Shown here one piece after another: positions 1,584-64,000 of a stretch of DNA of 64,000 nucleotides (its first letter is position 1; each line of letters opens with the position of its first letter). Source of the DNA: Trypanosoma brucei (Eukaryota); assembly GCA_000002445.1 (NCBI GenBank), contig CM000207.1:1184001-1248000 (forward strand). Reading direction: 5' to 3'. The position numbers and the translations under genes were made by a program. Under the pieces are notes generated by a model. That model was given only the letters and a program-made list of their open reading frames with translations. It made no database searches and was not told the origin of the DNA.

Positions 1584-3018
1584 TAGGCAAAAACAATACA
1601 CGGTTATTTCTATATGTGTATATGTACATATTATATGATGAAATATAAGTATAATTTCACTCAATCACATAAATATGTACGTGTGTGCGCAAACTTCCTT
1701 CATTTTTTCCCCCCTCTTCCATTTGAATCCGTTTCATGCCTTCAGTCAATGATATAAAACTATAAACACCACATCAGTTGGTGAGTTTCCACCAAATATA
1801 CGTCACATGTTTCATTTCACGCATAATTTCTCCTCATTCCACTCCCCTCCCCCCTCGCCCCCCCCTCCACTTCCTCCTTTCGGGTTTTTATTTCCTTTTG
1901 CAATTCAAAATCATACAAACGTTTTTTTGTGTGTGTGTTTGTTCACTTCAAAGGTTGAAAGATTAAACAAATATGGCGAAGGGACGCCATTTCATTTCAC
2001 CTAAGTTGCGTTAAAAATCAACTACGCATTTGTATTTGTGTTTGTAGGCGCGTGTGTAATTGCGTGATCAATTCATATCATATTTTCCATTATTAATAAT
2101 GGAATGTAAGAAGCTCACAACCCATAAACACAAACACACACACAAAAAAAAGAGTAGAGGTGAACAAACATCATGGCAGCAACAACTAGAAACAACAAAA
2201 AAACAAAAAAGATAAGAATTACAGTTTAAAGAAGGAAAAGTAAAACAAAAATATAACAATGACATCACAATACCAACATCAACAGCAACATCATTATTCC
2301 TCACTCTCATCACCACGACAACAGCGACAAAGTAACTAAAAACAACAAGCAAACAAACACACAAAAAAACAAAAACGGATACACTCCAGTAAAAATAAAA
2401 ACAAAAAAGATTTCCTCCCCCCCTTTTTTTCTTTCATTTCACCACCATCCAGTGATAATGTTAATAATGTTAATCATAATCATAATCATAACACCCGAGT
2501 CAAGTTTACCTCCTCACGTCACACTTTCCATACGAATTAATTTGGAAACAACACTCAACCGAGGGGGAAAGGGGGCTTTTTTTTTTCAAAAAAAAAAAAA
2601 GGAAGAAATTATAAATAAATAAATACATACATAAACGGCACTTAACGAAGTCAGTCAGAAGAAAAAACAAAACAAAACAAACAAACAAACGTAAAACGAA
2701 AACATGTACATTTAAGGTTGAAATATGAAAAAAAAAAGGGTAAGGAGAACAAAAAAAAAAGAATACAAAATCAAAGAGAGGAAAACTTCTTTTTTTTTTT
2801 TTTTGGGAGGGTGCTGGTGTTGTTATTGAGAGGGGGGGGGGGTATATATATATTTTTTTCCTTTTGATAGATGCCTCAGAAACTAAGAAAAGAAAAAGAG
2901 CGGGATAGACAGAGAATAAGCGACAGAGGTAGAAAAAAAAAAAAGAAAAAAAAAAGAACATAAAACATAAAACATAACAGAAAAAAGTATGGAGACCATA
3001 CACACACAAAAAAAAATA

Positions 3019-3041
3019 CATATATATATATATATATATAT
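3019..3041. repeat. (TA)n microsatellite
   Basis: Direct reading of a tatatata... run. Similar (TA)n runs lie at ~3346-3366, 3464-3497, 24645-24667 and 40490-40507. Confidence 0.9.
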
Positions 3042-3206
3042 GCACGTTAAAGCTCGCTGTACGGTAATCACGTACCTGAAACAAGAGCATTAGACGATAC
3101 CCATCACAGGCGCAAAAATTAAAAAAACAAAACAAATAAATATGAAGAATACGTTAAAGACAGCAGCCATACCTCCCGTTACGTTTAAGGATTTTGGTTG
3201 CTTTGT

Positions 3207-3230
3207 GTTGTTGTTGTTGTTGTTGTTGTT
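3207..3230. repeat. (GTT)8 microsatellite
   Basis: Direct reading: gttgttgttgttgttgttgttgtt. Confidence 0.9.
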
Positions 3231-3460
3231 TCTCCCTTCTTTCTTACCCCATTGCCCATTACCTCTTTCCCTCTTTCTCTTTTTTCCACCCCCCCCCCCC
3301 ACTTACCTCCCTTTTATCACTTATGCACTCGCATAAATAAATAAATATATATATATATATATATATGTACTCCTCCGCTTCGGAGTGATGGAACAAAAGG
3401 ATGACGTTTGGTAAAATAATACATATATTTATAAGAATACTACAACTGGATATGTATATA

Positions 3461-3463
<3 letters not shown>

Positions 3464-3497
<34 letters not shown>
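3464..3497. repeat. (TA)n microsatellite
   Basis: Direct reading. Confidence 0.9.
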
Positions 3498-3500
<3 letters not shown>

Positions 3501-4156
3501 CTTTTTTTTAAAAAAAACTAATAAATCAGTATAAATAATGACGTCATCATGACCAAAATACACGTTTTCCTTTTCTCTCCCCTTCATATGCACATAAATA
3601 TGCGTAACTGAAGAGGTGGAGTTCCGGTACTGAGAGTTAATGAAAACTAATTCCTTCTCATTTGTCATGACAGTTCCTCCTCCTCTCAGGGACTACACTC
3701 TTCCTATTGTCATCCTCCTCAAACTCGTAAAAAGGAAAAAAAAAGAAAAAAATGATAACAACGACCCGCCCCCCCCCAAAAAAAAGAAAATGATTGTATC
3801 AACAATATTTACACTACCAATGGGATGATTCCTTACGCGTATAAACAGAGATATTTTCTTTGATTCGCTTACCTACTCCACACACACACACTCACACTCA
3901 CACACACTGTCATATCTGTGCGTCTCAGGCATAACAAACTCCTAACTTTGAACGTATGCAACTTCCCCTTCCTTTCCTTCAATTTGTCGCTATGGCTGAG
4001 GAAATAACCCCTTCCATTCCCTTGTCGTGCTTTAAAATTCTTTTCCTAATCATTTTATTGACATGAAGCACCTTTAGCATTTTGGAGCAGCCACCAGCGC
4101 AGTCGCGTGTGCTGCGTGAGGCTCATTCGTTCATCATATTAACCTTCATAAACCAT

Positions 4157-50736: not shown

Positions 50737-52770
50737 TATTATTGATTCTAACGAATACTTGGAATATGTTTACAGGTAAATGTGGGATAACTACGATGCA
50801 AAGAAAAGGGAAGTACAAACATGTGCGTCAGCGCCCCTTGTGGGAAAAGGGATTATAAGATTTTCCATCACTTCTATTCAGTTAAAAGAAATATTTATAC
50901 AATCCACAGAACAGGACGAAGGACCTCTCGAAGACAAATTGTAAAAAGGGTGAATAACGGTCCAGTACCCTGTTCAAAGGAAACGACGTAACACTTAAAA
51001 CATTGCAGGTGACGGCTACAAAACTCATAGCATACGTAATGTTGAGTGAAAAAAGAAAAATAAAACTCAGTACTTTTAAACCCCTAGAGGAATATCCAAA
51101 GCCAACGGAAGTTTCGTCTTGTCGTATCGCAACAGGGAAGATTGCACAAAAATTTTAGGAAGAGGCAAGTGTGAAGGGGAAGGAGGCAACCAAATTACAG
51201 GGATACCATCTCCAGCTCTCCACATTCCTTTAAAGAGACCACACACGAAGCGGAGCCATCCAGTACGAAGGGAATTCTATGTGGACAACAAGCCGGAAAC
51301 AGCAGCACCAAGAGACTCCCTCCACAACAAACGCAGAGAGGTTAAAAGCACAAACCTTTCCCGATAGATTTTTAGGGCACATAAATGTCAAGAAGGTACA
51401 AAACCTACATTTTCCTGTTATGCGCCAATGCTGTCACGCAGCTGCCGCTACCTTTTGCTCCCACCGACAAAATAGCAGCATCCAAAATTCTCTGCATACG
51501 CAGCCATCTACAATAAAAAAAAGTTTTGGTATCTTGCAAATACTCATCGTATACACCCTCCGCTCTTGACGTAAAATTGGACGAACCTTCACCACTTGTA
51601 GTGGCGGTAGCTTCGGGCAACTATCACCTCTTCTCCATACATCTACATTCGGCACCCCTTTCCTACAAATAAAAAGTAATCTGCGGAAAGGCGCCAGCAG
51701 TCGTCCCACACTGCCTCGAAGTGCGGCAATCAACTTCTCTGATAGCGCCTCCCAGCAACGCGGCCGCGTGCCAGCAATTGTTTTTCATTACGGTCGATCT
51801 ACTTGAAGGTCAAGGGTATGGTGGTTTTCCTCTTATATCCTGTTTCCAGTCGTTTTTTTTCGCGATCGCACCCCACCAACAAATATATGGGCCATAATAG
51901 CGGGACCCTGCACTATGTGTGGCGCCCCGACGTAGCGAAACTGCAACGGTGCCCCGGCACGGACCAAAACCGCCAAAAGAAAATGGCGTTTTAGGGCATC
52001 ACCGGCACCACCAGTTCCCTGTGACGTCGGAGTAGAAACACAACAGATAACATCTCGCAAGTGCGGGATCGCTCTGGCCCCTGATTTTAGCCGGAGCGGC
52101 GCAGGTTAATGTCAACCGGTGCCTGAAATGGAGAACCTTAATCATCATCAGGCGCTGCGTGGCAAGCCGCGTTCTGCAGCTGGGCTACAAGCCTATATAC
52201 CAAACGTCAGCGTTACAAAGGACCATCTCCCACTGCTCTGGAGAATAAAGTATTTAAAAAAACGAACTGCCGTCCCACTTCGGTTGTCACTAAAACCACT
52301 AAACCGTTAGGGGGGAGCAAGCACGCACCACTCAGCAGATCATCTTCAGTGTGAGAGCGAGGGCTAATTAGCGGTCCCTACAGCGACGCAAACGAAGAGG
52401 CTTTGTGGCTTCCCCAACCCTCTTGTAAAACAAAAAAAATAGCTTGGGTTTCAACACCACCGAACCCGAAACACCGGCAAAACACGGAACAAGAGAGAGC
52501 TGTGCGGTGCCCGACGCCATGCAAGCAAAAGGATGCGTGAGGGAACGGTATGCAGCGGCATACTGGCTTTTTGTGTGGTTGCAGGTGAAGCTCGGATTGT
52601 CCTCTAAAGCAACGAGGCATATGATCCAGAGCGCAAGGGGAAGCCGCAACGTGGATCTCCGAAATTTGGCACTGTTAAAACACAGCAAGCCCATATAGGT
52701 GAAGAACACGAGGCTTGCCGTGGCCTGCGGGAGTGGGCAGCGGAAGGAGTTGAGTAGTTTAAGTTGAAGA

Positions 52771-52850
52771 CCCTGGCGATGCCGGCCACCTCAACGTGGT
52801 GCCAGGGTCCAGTACCCCGTATCATCGGGGGGAGCCAAGAGCCAGCAGCG
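52771..52850 (+). promoter_or_regulatory. Pr77-like 5' hallmark of the ingi/L1Tc clade. It is reported to act as an internal promoter in L1Tc.
   Basis: Sequence 'ccctggcgatgccggccacctcaacgtggtgccagggtccagtaccccgtatcatcggggggagccaagagccagcag' at the element's 5' end. Its function is inferred from the literature on L1Tc/ingi and is not testable from sequence. Confidence 0.5.
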
Positions 52851-53009
52851 TTCCTTTCATGGGGAACACTGCTGTGCTCCGGCTACGGCATCATACAGCA
52901 CAGGGATCAGCAGCGTCTTGCTGGGACACCGTTTTTCATTTGTCGGTCCGTGGGCACGTCCAAGCGTGCCAGCTGCAGTATCATCCGCACTAAGATGCTG
53001 CTGTCCAGT

Positions 53010-53033
53010 GATGTGGAAGAGAATCCCCGCCCG
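53010..53033 (+). other. Degenerate 2A-like 'ribosome-skipping' peptide DVEENPRP. The canonical form is D(V/I)ExNPGP. The surrounding context is SIIRTKMLLSSDVEENPRP.
   Basis: Read directly in frame (gat gtg gaa gag aat ccc cgc ccg). L1Tc and T. brucei ingi are known to carry a functional N-terminal 2A sequence. I recall the ingi version as '...SSIIRTKMLVSGDVEENPGP'. Here the essential Gly is Arg (ggc->cgc). Confidence 0.75.
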
Positions 53034-53588
53034 TCGTTGCGCGGGATGCAGTGGAACTGCGCCGGGCTATCTCAAGGAAAGAGATTAGCACTCCACAAAA
53101 CCCTTGTTGATGAGCGGATCGCCTTTTGTCTGTTGAGCGAGACAAGGATGACGCCTGGAGAGGCGGCTTGCTTTAGTGTTGCTGGCTACCAACATCACTG
53201 AATAGCTCGTAACTGCAAAGGAGGTGGTGTATCAATACTAGTGAGGGAGGACCTACCAGTCGAGACCGGTATGGCCGTTGTTGGTCGCATTGAACAAGTG
53301 CATGCAACAATTCACCTTGCACGTGGAACGGCGCTGACTGTCACGTCGGCATACATCCCACCAAAACACACCTTCACGGCAACTGACCTAGATACGCTTC
53401 TGACAACTGACGGTGCCCAGCTCATCGGTGCAGACGCTAACGCACACGCGTTGGCATGGGATCGCGCGAGCCCACCAAATACCAGGGGTGAAACCCTCAC
53501 ACAGTGATGCATTGACAACCAGTTTCTGGTCTGCAACACTGGTGAGTGCACAAGGTACGCACGCCACCACGGGGAGTCCACCCCTGAT

Positions 53589-55361
53589 GTGACACTGTCA
53601 AGGAATTGCACAGTGTACACGTGGACATCGCTGTATTCTCCCGATAGCGATCACCATCACATATTTTTCGACGTTATCGTTGGAGACGACACAGATGCAC
53701 TGAGTTGCCCGCGGCTTCGAAAGCCCATGTACGCATGGCTAAGAGCTGACTGGAGGAATTTCCGTCTCAAGGTTGACGAGCTCTGCAGGAAAATTGGTAG
53801 AGAGAAGAACCTCAACAGCCTGGAACAGAAATTGAGCTCCGCCATCCGCATTGCGATGAAGGTCTCCGTCCCCCGTGGCTGCAGAGCAACGCCACCACAT
53901 TGGACACCTACACTCCCGAAACTCGATGAAGAGATCGCTGGATGCGGGCCCTCCCACCGAAGGGAAAAGTTGGTAGCCACCCGTAAGCAGATTCTGGACC
54001 GTACCACAAAGAAGAGATGGAGCACGCTATGCTCCAGACTTGCGGTGTCAGACCGCTGTAGTTGGCACATTGTCAAGAAGGTATATGCGCCACGACCACT
54101 AACCACAGCGGCGGTGCTGGTTGATAAGGCGGCCATCACGGACTACCGTCAAGCTGAGAGGTTCAGTAAACTGTACTCGTCCCGCGCAAGAAGGCACCCC
54201 GACTCACACCCACCGGCACCCATAAAGACGATAGCGAGTGAGTTTAGTCCCATCACGATGGCTGAACTACGGAGATCGATCAAACTGCTACCGAGTGGAT
54301 CCGCAGCCGGACCTGATTGCTTATACAACGAGGCACTGCAACATCTCGGCAGAACAGCGCTGAATGTTGTTCTGAGGCTATTCAATGAGAGGCTACGAAC
54401 GGGAGTCGTGCCGCCTGCATGGAAGACTGGTGTTATCATCCCCATCCTGAAGGCCGGAAAAAAGGCGGAGGACCTCGATTCTTACAGGCCTGTGACGCTC
54501 ACGAGCTGTCTCTGCAAAGTCATGGAGCGCATAATTGCCGCGAGGCTTAGAGACACTGTTGAGTCCCAGCTGACACCGCAGCAATCAGGCTTTCGCCCCG
54601 GATGCTCAACGCTCGAACAACTGCTGCACGTCCGCGCTGCCCTCTGCCGCCCCACGCACCAATATCGTACGGGTGCTGTATTCGTCGACTACGAGAAGGC
54701 ATTCGATACAGTAGACCACGACAAAATTGCGAGGGAAATGCACAGAATGAAGGTATCACCCCACATTGTGAAGTGGTGCGTATCATTTCTGAGTAACCGA
54801 ACTGGCAGAGTGAGATTCAAGGAGAAGCTTTTCAGCAGCAGAACATTTGAGCGAGGAATGCCACAAGGAACTGTCCTTGGCCCAATCATGTTCATTATTG
54901 TCATGAACTCATTGAGCCAACGCCTTGCAGAAGTGCCGTTACTGCAGCACGGATTCTTTGCAGACGACCTGACGCTACATGCGAGGCACACAGAGAGGGA
55001 TGTCATCAACCACACACTACAATGCGGCCTCAACGTGGTGTTACAGTGGTCAAAAGAGTACTTCATGTTTATCAATTGTAGCGAAAACGAAGTGCACACT
55101 CTTCGGGTGTATAGAGCGCCACCCCCTTACATTGCAACTGGATGGCGAAAGAATAGGAGCTGGCAGGACACCGAAGCTTCTAGGAGTAACATTCCAGTGT
55201 CTGCAGGGGATGGCAACACATGCGGCCGAAACGAGACGCAAGATGGACTTCAGACTACTGCAGATAGCAGCCATCTCAGCTTCTACATGGGGGCCAAGAC
55301 GACAAGTGCTGAGAGCTTTTTATCTAGCACTCGTACAGGCACACACCATGTATGGCATTGA
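53589..55361 (+). pseudogene. ingi reverse-transcriptase segment. It shares a frame with the endonuclease and ends by frameshift around 55070-55090.
   Basis: RT motifs are present ('PDCLYNEALQHLG', 'RPVTLTSCLCKVMERII', 'QSGFRPGCST', 'VFVDYEKAFDTVDH', 'FADDLTLH'). The protein continues in the +1 frame as ORF 54979..55920. Confidence 0.8.
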
Positions 55362-55920
55362 GGTATGGTACTGGGACGCTTCGGAACGAAGTCGCGACCT
55401 CCTTGCATCAGCACAACACAAAGCCAGTCGCATCATAGCCGGCATACCGCATGGGACGCGCAAAGAGGACTCTCTGCTGGAAGCAAACCTCCTGCCACTC
55501 AGGACGACCACTCTTGTGCGCAGCATGAAATTCATGCTGATGTGTGAGTCACGAGGCGGATGTTTGTGCCGCAGTGCTGAGGAAGTATACCACAGCAAAC
55601 ACCCAGTCAGAGCCCTACATTCCCGCATCATGCGGTCCTATCCCCACCTCCGCATTGAGCCACGCGAGCACCCACTAGAGACATCGACGCTCCGCCACAG
55701 CTGCCGACCGCTATTTCACACGCAGATAAAGCCTGTGTGCGCCGATGACCCTGACGATGTCAAAAGGGAGGCTTCCGAAAAGTGGATTGCACGGCATTTT
55801 GCACGGGGGGGAGGAAGGAGCCACCGCGGCGAGAGCACTACGAATTGTGGACTGATGGATCCGTGTCCCTCGGTGAGAAGTCCGGAGCAGCTGCCCTGCT
55901 CTATAGAAACAACACGCTGA
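54979..55920 (+). pseudogene. ingi RT C-terminal/'thumb' segment in a shifted frame. A second frameshift in a G-run (gcacgggggggaggaagg, ~55800-55816) returns to the original frame.
   Basis: The frame-1 ORF overlaps both neighbours. The continuity of the conserved protein is only recovered by two frameshifts. Confidence 0.7.
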
Positions 55921-57509
55921 TTTGCGCACCCAAAACTGGAGCAGGGGAACTTTCATGCAGTTACAGAGCGGAATGCGTAGTATTAGAGATAGGACTGCAA
56001 CGGCTGCTGAAATGGCTTCCGGCATACAGAAGCACACTGAGCAGGTTGTCCATCTTCTCTGACTCTCTGTCAATGTTAACAGCACTGCAGACAGGCCCCC
56101 TAGCCGTAACGGACCCAATTCTAAGACGACTATGGAGGCTTCTGCTTCAAGTTCAGAGAAGGAAGATGCGTATCCGACTGCAATTTGTGTTCGGCCATTG
56201 TGGTGTGAAACGGAATGAGGTTTGCGATGACATGGCGAAAAAGGCCGCAGATTTACCACAGTTGCGAGACACATGGATCCCCGACATCATTGCTTATGCG
56301 AAGCGAGTGCTTAGGTCGGAAGAAGTCCATGAGAACACTCATAGGTTTGGTATCACGGGCAACCACTTTCCAACAAAACATAAAGAAGAACTGACGAGGG
56401 AAGAAGAAACGGCACTGGCACGCTTTCGGGTTGGGTCTTCAAGACACTATGGATGGATGTTGCGAAAGATCAACCCGAGTGTGCCTCCACAGTGCCGATG
56501 GTGTAACCCGCAACATGCAGCGATAGGGCCAACAATACAAACAACCACACCTGTTGCGACACGCACTCTTCAGAGAACCTCCGAACCGACCAAATGTACG
56601 GAATGTGATGCCACATACCAATGCCGCTCGAGTGCTGTAACGCATATGGTAAACAAACATGGCTTTGTGCGAGCTGATGCCCTCCGGAGGATCAAATACG
56701 GCGATGCAACACCTGCAGTGGACATCCCCCCGGAGCCCCCTCCAGTGGTGGCGATCGTTCCTCTACCATCGAGCACACGAGTCCCGATGAGACCGCAGGT
56801 GCTTTATTGTACCCTCTGTGCCTCCAAATTCGCAGTGCCAGGCCGACTATTACACCACCTTAGAACAATACATGGCATAGGCAGCGGTAGTTGCCGCGTG
56901 AAAAGGGGGCGAGAAAACGAGGACTCAGTGCAAGGAGATGGTAGCGCTCCAGCAGCGCCAGCCCCTCAGGATACAAAGAAGCTGCCGTTTCAATGTGACC
57001 TGTGCGAGGCGAGCTTCGATACACGCTATTCCCTGTCACTACACAAGAAATTCAAACATAAGAGCATAGTGACGGAGGACGGTACCGTGGTGGTAGTGCA
57101 ATTCCCTCGTAACCGTGCCCGTGAGGGAAACGTTGACGTCCCGGGGAAGGGCGAGGTGCAGTGTGGTGTGTGCCAAAAAGTGCTCAGTTGCAGGGACTCC
57201 CTCATCCGACACTGTAAGGCTTTCCACAAAGGTGAGGGAGTCGAGCTTAAATGCAGCAAAAGCACAAAATTGTGTGCCACTGATTCCCCGCATACAAACA
57301 CATCCATGTTGGTGTGCCCGACATGCGGAAGGCAGTGTGCTAGCAAAACTGGCCTCACCCTACATCAAAAGAAGATGCACGGTATGAAGTTAGAGCGCGC
57401 TGTTACCAGCCAACGCGGCGACTGCGAAGAAACGTCGCTGCACTTGATGAGCTGCCCCGGTTTGAAGGAGTTACATGTCAGGTTTGCGGTAGAAGGTGTG
57501 TCTGTGTAG
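55782..57509 (+). pseudogene. ingi RNase H plus C2H2 zinc-finger (nucleic-acid chaperone) C-terminal segment
   Basis: There is an RNase H motif, followed by five C2H2 fingers (CTECDATYQCRSSAVTHMVNKHG; YCTLCASKFAVPGRLLHHLRTIHG; FQCDLCEASFDTRYSLSLHKKFKHKS; CGVCQKVLSCRDSLIRHCKAFHKG; CPTCGRQCASKTGLTLHQKKMHG). Confidence 0.8.
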
Positions 57510-58866
57510 GATTTATGTTTTTCTAAAAGGCTGGCACAGTTTCTCACTGCGGTTGAACGGAGCCGGCCGAAGGTGAAGCCCTCACCTAAGGTAACAGACA
57601 TACAACCCACTCTCCCTTCTGCAACTTCCCCCTTATTGCCGAGTGTGGAGCTAGCAGGAAAAGCACCGGACGCAGGAATAGTCCAGACACCCTCAGAGAC
57701 AGAGGGGGTATGCAGTCAACAAGCAACAAAAACAGAAAGAAAGGAAGAGAATAATAAACGAATAACAAAAATCAAAACAAAAGGATTGCTAATTGACATC
57801 TTTTGGAGAGTCTGGGGTGTGGGGCTTCTCGCCCCATCTGCTGTGTTCCGTTCAACTGCGGAGCTACAACAAAAATTATAGAGCGTGTGTTAGGCTGAAT
57901 AAAAAAGGGAGACTCTGCCACAGTCGCCAGACCGATAGCGTCTCAGGGCTCTACGGTGATGGCTGATGGCCGCGCCAGTGGGAGGAAACTTTCACGAAGG
58001 CACGAAGAAAATTCGAAAAAAAAAATTGGCGTTGCCGCAACGGCTGTGGGAACGCCCTCTCACCCGCGCTGGGCCCGTAGCTTCAAACGAGGGCGAAACC
58101 TGAAAGTGATGGTGGCGTTTTTAAGGTGCAGGGTCGCGGTCAGCAGCGCATGGAAGTACTGGCGCACCTCGGTTGGGCACACAAGTGCTGATAAATGAGC
58201 AGCGCACAGTTTTTACAAGACAGCAGACGTGGCTAGCACGCCACGTATGAGCGGAGGATCAAAGTTACTTCCTAACGAGTGTGGGCACAGATGCGATCCG
58301 TACAGGCGAGGGAGCGTGAGGGACAAACATGAGAAACATGTATTCAGGGACTGTTGGTAATGAAGCGGGAGGGCCCGGAAACAGTGGACAATCACACGGC
58401 TTATCAAAACCAGATGAGCGGGAGTGTGGTAATGATAACCGGAATGTCGGCCACCATCAATGAAGATGCGGGGTCGCCGGTGAATGAGTCATCTGACACC
58501 GTTTCCGCAACAAACAGGCGGTGTCCTGTGAAGGAAAGTTATCGGTGGCAACAAAGGGCGGTGCGCAAGCCGTAGCGGGTGCATGTTGTTGCGGAGTGAA
58601 CACGAAAGGAAGGGTTGCAAAAATGGAAAGTCGCGTTGAACAACACCGCACATCCTTTGGGAACCCGCGTACACGAAAATCATCTTCGATAAGGTAGGGC
58701 CCGTTGCGCATGGTTAGCAATGCCTCGAGGTCGTGAAACCGAACGCTTCTCTTCACCAAACCCAAACAACATTTAAGTAAACACTATCATCTGTATTTTA
58801 AGGAATCCTGTATACCTTGGTCCAGTGGTTAAGTAGAGTACTCGTCGCAGATAATACCGGCATGGA

Positions 58867-59235
58867 TCCCCGCTGGCGTAAAGTATTTAGCTTACACTAA
58901 GGATGGATCTGCCTCAACATGGCGCCAGGATCCAGTAACAGAAGAGAAATCAACTGGGAAACCAAATGTTCCATCCAAACGGCGGCCGCAACACCGGATA
59001 TGGTGCGACCACTCCGTGGGGAGAGAACCATTACTTAGTGTTCCACGGTCCAGTACCCTGCTCAGGTGGGGGAACCAAAATCCCTGATACAACTTCCGTC
59101 CGGGGAGGCGGATGGATATGGTAAACATGGTTCAGACGCAATGTGGGAGGGGTCGAATGGGCGTCAAATGGAGACCACCCTTCTAGATACGCGCACATAT
59201 GCGGTCACCCAGCCGTGGGTATCAATTCTCCAAAA
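58867..59235 (+). mobile_element. Short (~370 bp) A-tailed retroposon fragment with a Pr77-like 5' region (RIME/SIDER-like, truncated or rearranged), in the same orientation as the ingi copy.
   Basis: 'ccccgctggcg...ctcaacatggcgccaggatccagtaac' and again '...cacggtccagtaccctgctcaggtgggggaacc' mimic the first ~70 nt of the ingi 5' end (ctcaacgtggtgccagggtccagtaccccgtatcatcggggggagcc). It ends in a 12-A run at 59223-59234. Its 3' half does not resemble the ingi 3' end seen at 57510-58022. Confidence 0.5.
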
Positions 59236-60397
59236 AAAAAAACAGGGGGTTTTATTGGGTAGCAATGTCTGTATCCACCGTTGAGCCCCACACTACCATG
59301 TCCTCACGGCGTGGTGTGCGTAAATGAATTTCCTTCTTATTCTCTGGTGGACCGACTGCATGGCCCTGACAGTTGCGGGAGGAAAAAAGTCCTGTATAAG
59401 AGTAACCAAAAAACGAATCGACCCTCCAGTCTACGTCAGAGAATCGTCCTTACAAGTCAACTGAGGAACCTTTTTCCGTACCCTTAAAACATGCCTGCGA
59501 TAAACCCCTCACCGTCCACCACGCAGCACGTACACATTTGTTACCTGAGGTTGCGGTTGCTGAGCAGTTGTCTGGTGTGTGTTTTGATGCTGTTGTTGCG
59601 GCAACGTTTCATGTGCCAAAGAAAATTATGAAATATATCCAATAAGTGTTTCTGCAACGAATAAGTAAGGTTATGTGAAACTAAAACACATAAAAGGATC
59701 ACTGCTTTCCATAGTTCCTGCATGAGCAGAGAATTGTTGGCACATAACATCTACTAACACTAGCCATACTGACAGCAACTTATTCCTCCTGCCCTCCGCC
59801 CTTGCACACACACCTCACAGTAACCAGTAACACCTCACAACTATTTTAAACATTCGGCTTATTGTCTCAACAAAAGTCAGAGGGTTAGTGACTTTCCTCT
59901 GTCACAAGCGGGGTTATTGCGACGGTAAGTTATTCCATTTTATCCACACATATATCAAATACAAAAAGTAATAATTAAGTGATGTCGCGTAACTGTTTTA
60001 GTCATAATTCAATGTGGAGTGTTGCGACCTTCAATTTCTTTCGAAGTGCGAGTTGGAGGCCATAAGCTTCTTCTCCTTGTTGGTAGTTATGTGGGACATG
60101 TTAGTTGGACTCGGTCACCATAAGTTCTGTCGTCTAACAGATAACAACAACATTATTTCTAAAAATTGTTATATACATTCAAAGAGTGAAATAGAGTGCA
60201 TTTGGATAGAATAAATTAAGTCTCAAAGCAACAAAAAGATACTGTTGAATTTACTGCAAACACATTACACAAACACTTTCAATGAACAAACACATTATAC
60301 CATTAACACAATTAAATTCCAAATACTATAACACATGTATTCTGTTCCAAAAAGTTACAATAAGTATTATGGTAATCACATCATAAGGTTATCACGA

Positions 60398-61366
60398 TTA
60401 AAGAAAAAAGGAAAAAAATGAAATCACAAGTGCAAATAATTTTTCCACCATATCTACATTTCGGTTATAAGCATAAGCACCATCAAAGGGTTTCCTCCTC
60501 ATGTAAGATAACATTGGTAGCAACATTGTATCATCAAGAAGGCATTGCTCCCTCTGTGCTGCAGTAAGATTGAGCCATGAGTTTTCAAGATACATTTTGT
60601 CAAGTTCCGCCTTTACACTGGGAGTGCTGTAACATGTTTCGGCAGAGCAAACGGTGCAACTGCGTTTCTTCATTCCTTCCTCAAACATTTGCGTCATCGA
60701 ATTAAGATGTCTTTTCAGGTTGTAAAGAGAAGCATTTTTCATCCGCAGGATTTCTGTTGTGGAATTAATAATATGTTGGGTAATGCTGTCGTTGCACTGT
60801 TGCTTTGACTTGTCAATTTTTTTAATTTTCTCTTTGTTTGATGTTTGAAGGGTCGCAACTGTTTCAGTTGAATATGTTGCTTTTTTGCTGTTCTCGCTGC
60901 ATATTACTTCTTCTGCCTTTTTAATTATTATTTTTTTTGCTTGTATTTTTTCTTTCCATCGCTGGAGTTCAGCCTTCAAGTTCTTGACCTGTTGTTCATA
61001 GGGTTTTGTTTTTGTGATTACCGGTTTGTTGCACAAACCTCTCCCTTCCACTTCGTCTTGCAACAATTTGTGTTTTTGAACTAATTCGTCAAGGGTTTTC
61101 TCGTTACTGCACTTCCAAAGCTTAGGAACGTTGGAATAATCAATCAAATCACAGAAGACCCAGTTCTTCTCATGGCTGTACGATCCTCGAACTGTCAAAG
61201 AAAGCCTTATCATATGATCCGTGTAATCCTCCTCCATCCATTTTGTATAATCGCAAGAATCAGCGCTTGCCCATTCACTTAAGCGAGACATCAGTAGCAA
61301 AACTCCAAATAGCATTCGCATTTTCCTAACGTCCCTGCGGAAGATAACATGAAACAGAACATTCAT
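60398..61366 (-). CDS. Secreted or surface coiled-coil protein, paralogue A (322 aa; a likely signal peptide begins at the Met encoded at 61319-61321). It has a hydrophobic C-terminus, possibly a GPI-addition signal.
   Basis: ATG at 61364-61366 and an in-frame ATG at 61319-61321 (MRMLFGVLLLMSRLSEWASA). There are Cys-containing N-terminal motifs (DSCDY...WVFCD...KLWKCSNE), a long heptad-rich K/E/Q region and a C-terminal 'CTVCSAETCYSTPSVKAELDKMYLENSW' motif. The tail 'VEKLFALVISFFSFFL' is hydrophobic. Confidence 0.55.
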   Translation of the reverse strand: MNVLFHVIFRRDVRKMRMLFGVLLLMSRLSEWASADSCDYTKWMEEDYTDHMIRLSLTVRGSYSHEKNWVFCDLIDYSNVPKLWKCSNEKTLDELVQKHKLLQDEVEGRGLCNKPVITKTKPYEQQVKNLKAELQRWKEKIQAKKIIIKKAEEVICSENSKKATYSTETVATLQTSNKEKIKKIDKSKQQCNDSITQHIINSTTEILRMKNASLYNLKRHLNSMTQMFEEGMKKRSCTVCSAETCYSTPSVKAELDKMYLENSWLNLTAAQREQCLLDDTMLLPMLSYMRRKPFDGAYAYNRNVDMVEKLFALVISFFSFFL

Positions 61367-61595
61367 TTATTTTGCCCAAAACACACCTGCATAAGAGGGG
61401 CAATATTTTCATCTAAAGGACAAAACCAACTGTACCGATTCGCAAAATGATAATACCATGATAATTAACTAACATGTATGATATCCATAAAAATTCCATT
61501 ATTATTTCACATGATGGAAAGAAACATCTGCTTAAACTAACAGATTAATAAGTAAGAAAAGATACAAACATAGCATATTTTATTTCCATAGCTGT

Positions 61596-62453
61596 TTACA
61601 TGTTTTCATTATATTTTGAATTATTCCCTTCAGTATCCTCATGTGGCGCCCCGCATTTAACACCTGATTTTGTCCATCCATCTTTTCCATATAATTTATC
61701 CAAATTTTCCTTTATGTGCACATCATCCCAACAAGTCCCAGCGTCACATGCGGGACAATTATTATTTCCAAGTTTTTCCAGCTGTTGTTCCTTCAGTTCT
61801 ATTGCTTTCTTCACACTTTCGATTTCTTTGTCCATTCTTTCTAGTTCAAGGTCGTATTCCACTTGCTTTTGTAGCTTTTTTTTTTTGCACTCTGTTGCCT
61901 CTTTTTCCGAAAGTGTGTCCAGCCGTGCACTTTCGTTCGTGAGGTCCCGTATCTTACCATCCTCTTGTGACATCGTTTTCATTTCCTTTTGGCACTTCTT
62001 CTTTTCTTGAACCTCCCGTGTACTCCCTTCTTGAAGTCTCGCATGCTCCTCCTTCGCCTCCTCAATTTGCTGCTGCAGTTGCGCCACCTGCTCTTTAAGA
62101 AGCCTCACTGAACTATCTACCTTCGCTTTGCAAACAGTTACGTCACCCACTTCACCGCTCCAGTTGAATTTGCTGGTTATGAGGCTTGTCGGATTATTGT
62201 TACTTGAAGTACCACAAAACCACAACAATTCACTTCCACCTTCCCTCCTTCCGCTGTTGTTGCATAACATCCACTTGTAATTTCCGTTCGCAAATTCATC
62301 AGCGTTTACTATCACGGCATGAATATCCTCCTCTCTTCCGTCTACTTCATACCTTCTCAAGGTGCAACCTTCTGCCTTCCCTTCCCCCCTCCCACTAAAA
62401 AGCAATAGCGTCATCCCCGCCCACAAGAACATAGCTTTCCCACGCCCTTTCAT
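61596..62453 (-). CDS. Secreted coiled-coil protein, paralogue B (285 aa from the ATG), with the same architecture as paralogue A but no hydrophobic C-terminus
   Basis: Track M1 is a GTG and the first ATG is codon 6 (62451-62453; MKGRGKAMFLWAGMTLLLFSGRG signal-peptide-like). It has 'EGCTL...WMLCNN...LLWFCGTS', a coiled-coil segment (LLKEQVAQLQQQIEEAKEEHARLQEG...), and 'CPACDAGTCWDDVHIKENLDKLYGKDGW' matching paralogue A's CxxCxxxTC(W/Y)...ELDK(M/L)Y..(N/D)(S/G)W motif. Confidence 0.55.
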   Translation of the reverse strand: MKGRGKAMFLWAGMTLLLFSGRGEGKAEGCTLRRYEVDGREEDIHAVIVNADEFANGNYKWMLCNNSGRREGGSELLWFCGTSSNNNPTSLITSKFNWSGEVGDVTVCKAKVDSSVRLLKEQVAQLQQQIEEAKEEHARLQEGSTREVQEKKKCQKEMKTMSQEDGKIRDLTNESARLDTLSEKEATECKKKKLQKQVEYDLELERMDKEIESVKKAIELKEQQLEKLGNNNCPACDAGTCWDDVHIKENLDKLYGKDGWTKSGVKCGAPHEDTEGNNSKYNENM

Positions 62454-64000
62454 ATTGTAACTTTGCACTATATGCCTTTCAAAAACCTTGTTGTCCTTGT
62501 TAACAAATGCGTATATAAATCAAATGAAATAATGGCAACAGCGAGTGTTAATTATAGTGACGGCAGCTTCTTTTCTTACTCTGAAGTAGCACTGAATTTA
62601 TTTCTCCATTGACACACGGCACAATGGCAGGACACAAATAAAGCTGAAAGTAAAATTTAACAAAAATAATATGTGATCCAAATACCAAACGGGTGTGGCA
62701 CCATGCATATCCAAGTGCAAACCTTTCACAGAAGATATACACGAAATAAATGAACACACATTTTCTGATCATCACACGCATATGCATATCCTACATTAAT
62801 TTCAGTTAACAGTTTTTCTCCTTAGCGATCCCTACTTCATCCCCGCATGTCTCACATTTATGTTCCTCATAACCTACAACACATATCAGATGCGCTGCCA
62901 CTTCCATCCTACCACCACAAACTCACATCAAATCCCCTCCTTTTTCCCCTCCCTCTGCATAAAGTTGCAATTCAACAAATGCAGCAGCATCACAATTCTG
63001 GAGATTCCGGTAATGCGATCACCCTGAAGAACAATTAATATTAACGGGCTGCATCTCTCACTACAATTCCACATAACGACACACCCCATGAAATATGAGA
63101 ACTTTTGGTGACATTATATCGTTTGGCATTTCCTACCAACATTCAAAAGGATTTGCCACACATCACAATTAGTTGCTGTATATCGTAAAACACCGTGAAA
63201 TAGTGTAGCAGTACGAGAAAAGGGGAGTCTAGTCCCTCTCCCGTAACTTCATCATTTCAATAAATGCTAACAGTATTCACGACCCAATACAAAAGACAAG
63301 GAACAACAACATATGGGAGATTTTACAGAATCCCACTTCTCTGCATCACAGCATCACCCTCGATGGCTCCTACACCTCGAGTTGAAGTAGACATGATAAT
63401 TCATACAGGGGTCGAACGGAAAGATAACATATATATATGTATATACATAACATATGATACGTAATACGTAATACATATTCCAGCACTTTTGTTGCTATCC
63501 ACAGAGATTTGACATGTTGGGAAACAAAATATACAGAATCAACATTACTCCAATTGCATCAGCCTCACAACACATTCGAGCGAGGGAATTGTGTAGAACT
63601 CAAGTACTGGAAATGTGAGATGCCATAAACATGTAACGATTAAACTTGAAAACAAATGCAATCTGGAAGTAAGTGTAACTAATGTATGGAATGACTGGAA
63701 TTGTTGGAAATACAGAATTTAATATAACTAAAAATAATACGTGTATTTTCATGCCACACGGAATAAAAAATGTGATAGAATACAACAACAGTAACCACAG
63801 TGGCTGAAATTCAAATAACACAGTTAAGTCACAGTTGCAGCATAAACACTTCTGGAAAGACTCCATAAAGGGTAAGAAAACTAATCATATTTCAAAGACT
63901 CAATTAGGCGTGGAAGAGAAACGGCAACTGGTACAAAATTAATGTAACTGCAGGAACATAGTGACACCAAGTGGCCATAAACTCAAGCGCCTGATGTGAA

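What the first reader, a model, noticed from the sequence alone, without database searches (positions are those of the whole stretch)
60398..62453. Tandem pair of divergent paralogues encoding signal-peptide, Cys-motif, coiled-coil proteins. They form a candidate lineage-specific secreted or surface family next to a retroelement cluster.
The two adjacent minus-strand genes share architecture. Each has a signal peptide, an N-terminal module with conserved Cys/Trp positions (…C…W…C…LW(K/F)C…), a long K/E/Q heptad-rich helix, and a C-terminal CxxCxxxTC(W/Y)x6-8(E)LDK(M/L)YxxN/DxW motif. Paralogue A ends in a hydrophobic stretch compatible with a GPI signal and B does not. Helical, Cys-framed, GPI-anchored proteins are the theme of trypanosome surface families (VSG-related, receptor-like). 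I cannot assign them to a named family from sequence alone. They sit immediately downstream of two retroposon copies in a region of long ORF-free DNA. That context is typical of fast-evolving surface-protein gene families.
Basis: inference. Interest (0 to 1): 0.6.

Follow-up and report, generated by a model that had tools for sequence, protein, structure and literature searches.

The report
Known Trypanosoma brucei paired surface-protein genes
The two genes are real, distantly related copies of a secreted or surface-anchored protein found only in Trypanosoma brucei and its closest relatives; the family is already catalogued (Tb927.9.7850/7860, 'Fam7') but its function is untested, and one copy has a lipid-anchor signal while its neighbour does not.

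Summary
The window is T. brucei TREU927 chromosome 9. ORF A is Tb927.9.7850 and ORF B is Tb927.9.7860. They form the first unit of a published 5x alternating A/B array (Tb927.9.7850-7960).

A and B are true paralogues (profile-profile probability 99%, E 4e-18). Both have an N-terminal signal-like segment, ten collinear cysteines, invariant tryptophans, a helical K/E/Q-rich rod of about 125 residues, and the CxxCxxxxC...LDKxY...W module. Only A ends in a GPI-signal-like tail.

An exhaustive profile search of 1.84 billion representatives found nothing outside the family. There is no Pfam, PDB or fold match to VSG-type proteins.

The family is not new. It is cell-surface-phylome Fam7, a predicted GPI family, and a copy-number-variable repeat with one pair in T. 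b. gambiense and T. evansi.

What this analysis adds:
- A strictly conserved cysteine spacing (44-46 / 35 / 44-46).
- Ancient, divergent coding cores embedded in homogenised flanks.
- A mostly basic A rod and a mostly acidic B rod.

My best reading, which is inferred, is a single-anchor A-B heterodimer with ESAG6/7-like logic.

Only one degenerate ingi lies nearby, not two retroposons.

The parts
60398..61321 (-). Gene A = Tb927.9.7850 (XP_827130/EAN76800). GPI-signal-bearing paralogue, 307 aa when counted from M16. The database start is M18 at 61315. The longest ORF starts at 61366.
   Evidence: 100% identity to P0001. Member of orthogroup OG0001171. Paralogue alignment favours the MR(I/M/T)LFG start.
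61262..61321 (-). A signal-peptide-like segment (residues 1-20, MRMLFGVLLLMSRLSEWASA|DS).
   Evidence: Kyte-Doolittle peak at residues 6-9 and A-x-A before the putative cleavage site. SignalP-positive in Savage 2012.
61031..61255 (-). A N-terminal Cys/Trp module (C23...W54..C57...W69.C71...C97).
   Evidence: Invariant columns in the 13-sequence alignment. Beta strands are predicted at low confidence.
60656..61033 (-). A helical rod (C97-C222) with internal C141 and C176. It is net basic (+14).
   Evidence: AF2 helices 98-144 and 152-219. Cys spacing is 44/35/46. Net charge.
60536..60658 (-). A C-terminal Cys module: C222xxC225xxxxC230 ... K237..LD..Y244....W249 ... C260.
   Evidence: Invariant columns.
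60401..60535 (-). A conserved tail, including the GPI-signal-like end. Candidate omega region is A282-N288 (60458-60478), followed by a polar spacer and the hydrophobic LFALVISFFSFFL (60401-60439).
   Evidence: Hydrophobic peak at residues 296-302 with no residues after it. 80-97% identical among A paralogues with low dS. BigPI and FragAnchor positive.
61322..61595 (-). B-A intergenic spacer of 274 nt. It contains pyrimidine-rich tracts followed by AG dinucleotides, and an in-frame upstream ATG for A at 61366.
   Evidence: Read directly from the sequence.
61596..62453 (-). Gene B = Tb927.9.7860 (XP_827131/EAN76801). Paralogue of 285 aa with no C-terminal hydrophobic tail.
   Evidence: 100% identity to P0011. 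Coordinates match the published annotation exactly. Member of orthogroup OG0000865.
62379..62453 (-). B signal-peptide-like segment (MKGRGKAMFLWAGMTLLLFSGRGEG|KA).
   Evidence: Kyte-Doolittle peak at residues 12-15 and small residues at -1 and -3.
62130..62366 (-). B N-terminal Cys/Trp module (C30...W61..C64...W78.C80...C108).
   Evidence: Four beta strands are predicted at pLDDT 45-64.
61755..62132 (-). B helical rod (C108-C233) with internal C154 and C189. Net charge is -1.
   Evidence: AF2 predicts a single helix over mature residues 80-202 at pLDDT ~90. Cys spacing is 46/35/44. The heptad score exceeds shuffles.
61599..61757 (-). B C-terminal Cys module (C233xxC236xxxxC241...LDKLY...W260...C267) followed by a hydrophilic tail ending ...SKYNENM.
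52771..58027 (+). Context only: one degenerate ingi retroposon. It has the conserved 5' CCCTGGCG... end, RT, RNase H, C2H2 fingers and an A-rich 3' end.
   Evidence: Pfam RVT_1, RNase_H and zf-C2H2. Ends read. ORF in three frame-shifted pieces. Absent at this position in T. b. gambiense.

Best explanation
The two ORFs are Tb927.9.7850 (A) and Tb927.9.7860 (B). They are the first unit of a five-unit alternating A/B tandem array on T. brucei TREU927 chromosome 9. The array belongs to a Trypanozoon-restricted family already catalogued as cell-surface-phylome Fam7.

Shown here: both proteins carry an N-terminal signal-like segment. Both have a framework of ten conserved cysteines, enough for five disulfides, and N-glycosylation sequons. 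Both have a small N-terminal Cys/Trp module, a helical rod of about 125 residues bounded by cysteines, and a compact C-terminal CxxCxxxxC...C module. A ends in a GPI-attachment-type signal and B does not.

Inferred: both enter the secretory pathway. A becomes GPI-anchored. B has no anchor of its own and is held on the membrane by pairing with A through the long helical rods, possibly with interchain disulfides. This would give a single-anchor (GPI1) heterodimer, the same logic as the ESAG6/ESAG7 transferrin receptor. It would be expressed mainly in bloodstream forms and would probably sit in the flagellar pocket or endosomal system. The variable N-terminal and rod portion would be the exposed, ligand- or antibody-facing part, and the conserved C-terminal module would be membrane-proximal.

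My probabilities: about 0.95 for identity and family; about 0.8 for a secretory or surface glycoprotein with a GPI anchor on A; about 0.35 for an A-B heterodimer.
For: Identity:
- 100% matches to XP_827130 and XP_827131.
- Exact coordinate match to Tb927.9.7860.
- Orthogroups of five A and five B genes.
- Accession order EAN76800-76811 shows strict A-B alternation, with units 3 and 4 identical.

Secretory features:
- Hydrophobic N-termini and the A-only hydrophobic C-terminus.
- Ten invariant or near-invariant Cys.
- Published SignalP, BigPI and FragAnchor predictions for the A genes.
- Fam7 is listed as signal-peptide positive. [quoted passage not shown]
- RT-PCR detected Tb09.v1.0450 at a low level in bloodstream and proventricular forms.

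Functional constraint:
- All copies are intact, the Cys spacing is invariant, and dN/dS is below 1.

Pairing:
- The A/B pair is the unit of duplication. It is kept as a pair where only one unit exists, in T. b. gambiense and in T. evansi.
- B is modelled as one uninterrupted helix of about 123 residues at pLDDT ~90, which cannot be stable alone.
- Rod length between the flanking Cys is 125-127 residues in both A and B. The internal Cys pair is exactly 35 residues (5 heptads) apart in all 12 members that retain both cysteines.
- A rods are net basic (0 to +14). B rods are mostly acidic (-10 to +4). Four of five cognate pairs are complementary.
- GPI valence is known to set TfR location in T. 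brucei (abstract of PMC5426795).
Against: - There is no experimental localisation, GPI labelling or interaction data in the searchable literature.
- The genes were not found in the surface-proteome supplements that were searched.
- Heterodimer modelling could not be run.
- The A model folds the rod as an intramolecular hairpin (helices 98-144 and 152-219). It is low confidence (pLDDT 50.9).
- The cysteines sit symmetrically. The midpoints of C4/C7 and C5/C6 coincide within 1 residue in 12 of 12 complete members. This fits a self-contained, disulfide-stapled hairpin at least as well, and such a hairpin needs no partner.
- Unit 2 breaks the charge complementarity (A +2, B +4).
- Co-duplication of A and B is expected for any two-gene repeat unit and does not prove physical interaction.
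- Reported expression is low.
Confidence: 0.45

Rival explanations
1. A and B work independently. Each folds on its own as a disulfide-stapled antiparallel helical hairpin, with nested C4-C7 and C5-C6 bonds, carrying the small N- and C-terminal modules. A is a GPI-anchored surface or flagellar-pocket protein, a monomer or a GPI2 homodimer. B is released as a soluble secreted factor, as some ESAG9 proteins are.
For: - The midpoints of the C4/C7 and C5/C6 pairs coincide within 1 residue in all 12 complete members.
- The A model shows a hairpin.
- B has no anchor or membrane segment.
- Mature A and B each carry an even number of Cys (10), so all can be intrachain.
- Unit 2 lacks charge complementarity.
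Against: - The better-supported B model is a continuous helix at pLDDT ~90 with no turn.
- The C5-C6 interval never varies from 35 residues, although a hairpin loop would be expected to tolerate indels.
- One member (P0006) has lost C5 but keeps C6.
- The strict retention of A with B in single-unit strains is left unexplained.
Confidence: 0.3
2. The family is a highly diverged derivative of the VSG / ESAG6-7 / three-helix-bundle surface-protein superfamily.
For: - The general theme fits: signal peptide, long helices, Cys-rich membrane-proximal module, GPI anchor, a variable N-terminal part and a conserved C-terminal part.
- One UniRef record names an A-type homologue 'Trypanosomal VSG domain containing protein'.
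Against: - No member hits any VSG, ESAG or ISG Pfam model, even at E up to 10.
- The profile search of PDB sequences returns only coiled-coil noise.
- The exhaustive profile search of 1.84 billion representatives finds only the family itself.
- The proteins are about 260 mature residues with at most two long helices predicted, which is short of a VSG-type N-terminal domain.
Confidence: 0.1
3. The array is an evolutionarily labile, functionally dispensable repeat. Its products are barely made and have no important role.
For: - Copy number ranges from five units in TREU927 to one in T. b. gambiense and T. evansi.
- Published read-mapping tables report frameshift-type indel calls for Tb927.9.7950 in T. 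evansi.
- The RT-PCR signal is low.
- The genes did not appear in the surface-proteome supplements searched.
Against: - All ten TREU927 ORFs and the T. b. gambiense pair are intact.
- The ten-Cys framework and its spacing are invariant despite only 31-46% core identity.
- dN/dS is 0.1-0.4.
- At least one pair is retained in every genome examined.
Confidence: 0.1

Closest known systems
Cell-surface-phylome Fam7, also called the 'Tb927.9.7950/Tb927.9.7960-related' 5x repeat and tandem array Tb85 (Jackson 2007, 2013; Savage 2012; Carnes 2015)
   Same: It is this family. The window genes are the first unit, Tb927.9.7850/7860. The published description matches what I see:
- restricted to T. brucei;
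- signal peptide present;
- GPI predicted for the A genes;
- ten members arrayed in tandem;
- bloodstream-biased transcripts;
- one unit in T. b. gambiense and T. evansi.
   Different: Nothing differs in identity. The literature treats it as hypothetical proteins only. The points below come from this analysis, and I did not find them in the papers searched:
- the A/B (GPI+/GPI-) alternation;
- the conserved ten-Cys spacing;
- the helical rod;
- the basic/acidic rod contrast;
- the pattern of divergent cores in homogenised flanks.
ESAG6/ESAG7 transferrin receptor of T. brucei (Fam15)
   Same: Both are tandem paralogous genes, one with and one without a GPI signal, kept together as a pair. Both have several divergent versions of the pair in one genome. 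In TfR the outcome is a single-anchor heterodimer whose GPI valence dictates flagellar-pocket residence.
   Different: There is no detectable sequence or fold relationship. The locus is chromosome-internal, not a telomeric expression site. A and B are only about 20% identical, whereas ESAG6 and ESAG7 are close paralogues. Heterodimer formation is untested here.
ESAG9 (Fam2)
   Same: Both are T. brucei-specific, highly divergent, Cys-containing proteins of about 300 aa with a signal peptide. Both include chromosome-internal copies on chromosome 9. In both, some members carry a GPI signal and some do not. (The ESAG9 description rests on my own knowledge of Barnwell et al. 2010.)
   Different: No ESAG9 protein was recovered by the word-indexed searches or the exhaustive profile search. 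Published expression for the example genes also differs: ESAG9 is stumpy-enriched, while Fam7 is roughly flat across bloodstream stages.
Disulfide-bounded multi-chain coiled coils (fibrinogen chains; the LRIM1/APL1C heterodimer)

Membership tests
Fam7 / Tb927.9.7850-7960 A/B array (orthogroups OG0001171 and OG0000865) | Sequence identity to annotated members, and position in the chromosome 9 array. | tested here: met
   A and B are each 100% identical to the TREU927 proteins. B's coordinates equal the published Tb927.9.7860 coordinates. Both IDs are listed in the orthogroup table. Accession order shows A-B x5.
Fam7 / Tb927.9.7850-7960 A/B array | Restriction to T. brucei sensu lato. | tested here: met
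   The profile HMM against 1.84 billion representatives returns only the two family clusters. All hits are T. b. brucei, T. b. gambiense or T. equiperdum. Published orthogroups are 5-0-0-0.
GPI-anchored surface protein (gene A) | Cleavable N-terminal signal peptide. | tested here: met
   Heuristic evidence only: a hydrophobic core at residues 4-11 and A-x-A before D20. SignalP was not available here. Published SignalP results are positive.
GPI-anchored surface protein (gene A) | C-terminal GPI signal: small omega and omega+2 residues, a polar spacer, then a terminal hydrophobic stretch with no cytoplasmic tail. | tested here: met
   A282-Y-A284 (or N286-R-N288), then a spacer, then 13 hydrophobic residues at the very C-terminus. 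BigPI and FragAnchor are positive in Savage 2012. B lacks any such tail.
GPI-anchored surface protein (gene A) | Biochemical proof of a GPI anchor and of surface or flagellar-pocket location. | not testable with these tools
   No such data were found in the searchable papers.
VSG superfamily / trypanosome three-helix-bundle surface proteins | Match to VSG, ESAG6-7 or ISG sequence models. | tested here: not met
   Pfam scan of all 13 members at E up to 10 gives no trypanosome surface model. The PDB profile search gives only coiled-coil noise with E of 0.009 or worse.
VSG superfamily / trypanosome three-helix-bundle surface proteins | Three-helix-bundle fold. | tested here: inconclusive
ESAG6/7-type single-anchor heterodimeric receptor (works-like comparison) | Adjacent GPI+ and GPI- paralogues retained as a pair. 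| tested here: met
   for T. evansi.
ESAG6/7-type single-anchor heterodimeric receptor (works-like comparison) | Physical heterodimer of the two products. | not testable with these tools
Only indirect hints exist, from rod length, Cys register and charge.
ESAG6/7-type single-anchor heterodimeric receptor (membership) | Homology to ESAG6/7, PAG or a-type VSG, and location in an expression site. | tested here: not met
   No sequence relationship was found. The locus lies among chromosome-internal housekeeping genes.
ingi non-LTR retroposon (neighbouring element) | RT, RNase H and C2H2 fingers in one ~5.2 kb unit with the conserved 5' end and an A-rich 3' end. | tested here: met
   There is one copy only, with no second copy in the window.

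The most novel reading that the evidence does not exclude
A and B form a disulfide-linked, single-GPI heterodimeric receptor built on a long coiled-coil rod. It would be structurally unrelated to the VSG-fold transferrin and haptoglobin-haemoglobin receptors. The four to six anciently diverged core types would be maintained as alternative ligand- or host-specific (or antigenically distinct) versions. Their gene ends and flanks are homogenised, and copy number varies between strains. This would be a second, independent invention of the ESAG6/7 strategy in T. brucei.
Probability: 0.25. Interest if true: 0.65.

Novelty: already known. Interest (0 to 1): 0.3.

Why it matters
As an object, this is an annotated and catalogued T. 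brucei-specific family whose function is unknown, so finding it is not news.

It matters modestly for two reasons. First, invariant (non-VSG) surface and flagellar-pocket proteins of bloodstream trypanosomes are the parasite's nutrient receptors and immune-modulators, and they are the only realistic vaccine or drug-delivery handles. Most of the T. brucei-specific families (Fam4-7) remain untouched experimentally. Second, three features make a specific, cheaply testable hypothesis out of what the literature lists only as 'hypothetical protein, conserved'. These are the GPI+/GPI- pairing, the rigid Cys framework on a long helical rod, and the deep divergence of the coding cores inside homogenised repeat units.

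Tried and rejected
- **Pfam:** scans of A and B, and of all 13 family members at E up to 10, gave only spurious coiled-coil matches.
- **PDB sequences:** the profile search gave only coiled-coil noise.
- **Exhaustive search:** the profile HMM against 1.84 billion representatives found no relatives beyond the family. I therefore did not spend the third word-indexed search.
- **AF2 on A:** pLDDT 50.9, too poor to use. Foldseek against PDB gave nothing.
- **AFDB search:** afdb50 was not available.
- **DNA of the other TREU927 units:** could not be fetched. Only the T. b. gambiense locus (L002) and a short Logan contig (L001) were obtained. Codon-level analysis is therefore limited to window unit 1 against the gambiense unit.
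- **Positive selection:** considered and not supported. NG86 dN/dS is 0.1-0.4, but dS is saturated in the cores, so the test has little power.
- **ESAG9 relationship:** considered and rejected for lack of any sequence signal.
- **Second retroposon copy or retroelement cluster:** rejected.
- **Rfam scan of the window:** nothing found.
- **Literature:** searches by protein accession found nothing. No paper in the library discusses Tb927.9.7850/7860 functionally.
Full report
**1. What is at the coordinates**

The minus strand carries two adjacent ORFs. A is 60398..61366 (322 aa as the longest ORF) and B is 61596..62468 (290 aa).

Database searches place the window in Trypanosoma brucei brucei TREU927 chromosome 9. 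A is 100% identical to XP_827130/EAN76800, and B is 100% identical to XP_827131/EAN76801.

A supplementary table of the T. evansi genome paper gives Tb927.9.7860 as Tb927_09_v4:1245596-1246453(-). This is exactly B from its annotated ATG (window 61596-62453), so the window corresponds to chromosome 9 positions 1,184,001-1,248,000.

The orthogroup table of a 2023 spatial-proteomics paper lists two groups. The A group is Tb927.9.7850/7870/7900/7930/7950 and the B group is Tb927.9.7860/7880/7910/7940/7960. Both groups have five genes in T. brucei and none in T. congolense, T. vivax or T. cruzi. A is therefore Tb927.9.7850 and B is Tb927.9.7860.

The rest of the window holds ordinary chromosome-internal genes on the same strand: calpain, adenylosuccinate lyase, a DHHC-ankyrin protein, a TTC21/IFT139-type protein, a phosphatase, a DENN protein and spermidine synthase.

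Yes. Pairwise BLASTP of A against B gives E 3e-7 with 22% identity over 262 collinear residues. A profile of eight A-type proteins against a profile of five B-type proteins gives hhalign probability 99.0% and E 3.9e-18 over 244 columns.

C141 is present in 12 of 13. A and B each have exactly ten cysteines at collinear positions.

Each protein has an N-terminal hydrophobic segment followed by small residues at -3 and -1. Only A has a terminal 13-residue hydrophobic stretch (LFALVISFFSFFL). It is preceded by small residues (A282-Y-A284 or N286-R-N288) and a polar spacer, which is the layout of a GPI signal. B ends in a hydrophilic tail.

The central 125 residues are helical in both AF2 models and rich in K/E/Q. 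A simple heptad score is clearly above shuffled controls for B (0.72 against a 95th percentile of 0.58). For A it is only at the 95th percentile, so 'heptad-rich' is fair for B and marginal for A.

**3. The context claim is only partly right**

There is one ingi retroposon at 52771-~58027 on the plus strand. It has the conserved CCCTGGCG... 5' end, RT, RNase H, C2H2 fingers and an A-rich 3' end. Its ORF is split into three frame-shifted pieces.

No second ingi, RIME or related copy is detectable anywhere in the window by blastn or tblastx.

In T. b. gambiense DAL972 the orthologous flanks are 95-97% identical. However, the ingi-containing 6.9 kb (52767-59671) is replaced there by about 2 kb. 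The retroposon is therefore a strain-specific neighbour and not a feature of the gene family.

**4. The family and what is already known**

Accession order shows five strictly alternating A-B units: EAN76800/01, 02/03, 05/06, 08/09 and 10/11. Units 3 and 4 are identical. Units are spaced about 5.75 kb apart.

The literature already records this locus:
- Jackson 2007 lists it as tandem array 85 (Tb09.v1.0470), present only in T. brucei and T. b. gambiense, with Ds 0.56 and Dn 0.27.
- Savage 2012 lists Tb09.v1.0450.0470.0500.0530 and Tb09.211.0010 as a gene family predicted GPI-anchored by both BigPI and FragAnchor and positive for SignalP. Tb09.v1.0450 was detected at a low level in proventricular and bloodstream forms. 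By its position in the array, Tb09.v1.0450 is almost certainly gene A.
- Jackson 2013 lists Fam7 (example Tb09.v1.0540, ten members, signal peptide, T. brucei-specific). It is grouped with Fam4-7 as tandemly arrayed hypothetical proteins expressed preferentially in bloodstream forms.
- Carnes 2015 describes the 'Tb927.9.7950/7960 repeat' as a 5x repeat of a two-gene tandem, reduced to one copy in T. evansi STIB805 and T. b. gambiense.

The assignment to Fam7 rests on the example ID lying inside the array and on the member count of ten. I regard it as very likely but did not see a member list.

I found no functional, localisation or interaction study.

**5. No relatives and no known fold**

The evidence is uniformly negative:
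- Pfam scans of all 13 members, even at E up to 10, give only coiled-coil noise and no VSG, ESAG or ISG model.
- A profile search of all PDB sequences gives nothing better than E 0.009, to a ciliary coiled-coil protein.
- An exhaustive hmmsearch of the family profile against 1.84 billion cluster representatives returns only the two family clusters.

The AF2 model of A is poor (pLDDT 50.9) and has no Foldseek match.

The hinted VSG-like three-helix bundle therefore has no support. The models are too weak to exclude it.

**6. New structural observation**

The spacing of the four rod cysteines is almost frozen across all members, even though only 31-46% of core residues are identical within the A or B type. 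C4-C5 is 44-46 residues. C5-C6 is exactly 35 residues (five heptads) in all 12 members that retain both cysteines. C6-C7 is 44-46 residues. The midpoints of the C4/C7 and C5/C6 pairs coincide within one residue in all 12 complete members.

Two topologies fit this pattern. The first is an intramolecular antiparallel hairpin stapled by nested C4-C7 and C5-C6 disulfides, as in the low-confidence A model. The second is an extended rod that pairs in parallel with a second chain. In this case the cysteines sit at equivalent heptad positions, and C154 of B falls on a 'd' position of the V116/L119/V123/L126/I130/A133 register by my reading of the sequence. The B model and the absence of any indel in the C5-C6 interval fit this second option.

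Rod length between the bounding cysteines is 125-127 residues in both A and B. A rods are net basic (+14, +12, +2, +4, 0, +4, +3, +6). B rods are mostly acidic (-1, -10, +4, -5, -6). Four of five cognate pairs are complementary.

**7. Evolutionary pattern**

Among A paralogues the mature N-terminal and rod part is only 31-44% identical between array positions, while the last ~90 residues are 80-97% identical. B shows a milder version of the same pattern.

I compared window unit 1 with the T. b. gambiense unit, which is the orthologue of unit 5. Synonymous sites in the A cores are saturated (pS 0.68-0.75), but dS is only 0.2-0.3 in the 3' third of A. dN/dS is 0.1-0.4 throughout most regions.

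[quoted passage not shown] The coding cores of both genes fall to 51-62%.

The simplest reading is that the core types are old and that the flanks and gene ends have been homogenised by gene conversion. Jackson 2007 described this behaviour for other T. brucei arrays. Positive selection is neither needed nor demonstrable here.

T. equiperdum sequences add at least one further core type, P0006.

**8. How it most likely works**

Shown:
- signal-like N-termini;
- a ten-Cys framework;
- glycosylation sequons;
- a GPI-type end on A only;
- A/B always adjacent, and retained as a pair where only one unit survives.

Inferred:
- Both proteins are secretory-pathway glycoproteins.
- A is GPI-anchored.
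- B, lacking any anchor, is either secreted or held by A.

I favour an A-B heterodimer through the rods, at about 0.35. This gives a single-anchor complex analogous in logic to ESAG6/ESAG7. In that system GPI valence determines flagellar-pocket residence, and GPI+/GPI- tandem pairing is the hallmark.

The main rival, at about 0.3, is that each protein is a self-contained disulfide-stapled hairpin, with A anchored and B secreted.

**9. Verdict**

The object, however, is an already annotated and catalogued T. brucei-specific family of unknown function. Its novelty class is 'already known'.

The added value here is a sharper, testable hypothesis and a few structural and evolutionary regularities. 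Interest is modest.

Noticed in passing
window 52771-58027 (+); compare L002 11755-13736: A single degenerate ingi retroposon, with its ORF in three frame-shifted pieces, lies 2.4 kb from the 3' end of gene A. The same inter-gene interval in T. b. gambiense DAL972 lacks it (6.9 kb against about 2 kb), although the flanks are 95-97% identical.
   Followed up: yes
window 58028-59671: About 1.6 kb lies between the ingi 3' end and the conserved 3' flank of gene A. It has no counterpart in the T. b. gambiense locus, apart from a 162-bp stretch at 67% identity. It shows no similarity to the ingi and has no long ORF. Its origin is unexplained.
   Followed up: partly
window 61322-61366 (-): Gene A has an in-frame upstream ATG that would add MNVLFHVIFRRDVRK before the MRMLFG start. 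A similar peptide (..LFHIICCRGIKK.., ..VFHAICYKVVRR..) precedes the start in the T. b. equiperdum and T. b. gambiense homologues P0008 and P0009. The database start (M18) is probably not the true one. Paralogue alignment favours M16, and the upstream ATG cannot be excluded.
   Followed up: partly
window 61322-61595 (-): Only 274 nt separate the stop codon of B from the start of A. B's 3' UTR, the polypyrimidine tract with its splice acceptor, and A's 5' UTR must all fit in this space, which is unusually tight for T. brucei. The spacer between units is about 3.7 kb.
   Followed up: no
proteins P0005 and P0006 (T. equiperdum), P0014 and P0015 (B type 5): UniRef names P0005 'Trypanosomal VSG domain containing protein', but no member hits a VSG Pfam model. 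P0006 lacks framework Cys C5 while keeping C6. B proteins of unit 5 and T. b. gambiense have a different C-terminal tail with two extra cysteines.
   Followed up: partly
beyond the window (Tb927.9.7900/7910 and 7930/7940): Units 3 and 4 of the array encode identical A and identical B proteins (EAN76805=76808, EAN76806=76809), so they are a very recent duplication. The other units have cores that are only 31-46% identical to each other.
   Followed up: partly
window 2001-4000: A markedly AT-rich stretch (GC 0.335 against about 0.47-0.53 nearby) with strong AT skew lies next to the calpain-like gene. It was not examined.
   Followed up: no
window 1-64000: The Rfam gathering-threshold scan found no RNA family anywhere in the window. 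Apart from the ingi ORFs, the long plus-strand ORFs overlap minus-strand ORFs and were not examined, so the window looks like one minus-strand gene cluster; the strand switch that Jackson 2013 associates with Fam4-7 is not within the window.
   Followed up: partly
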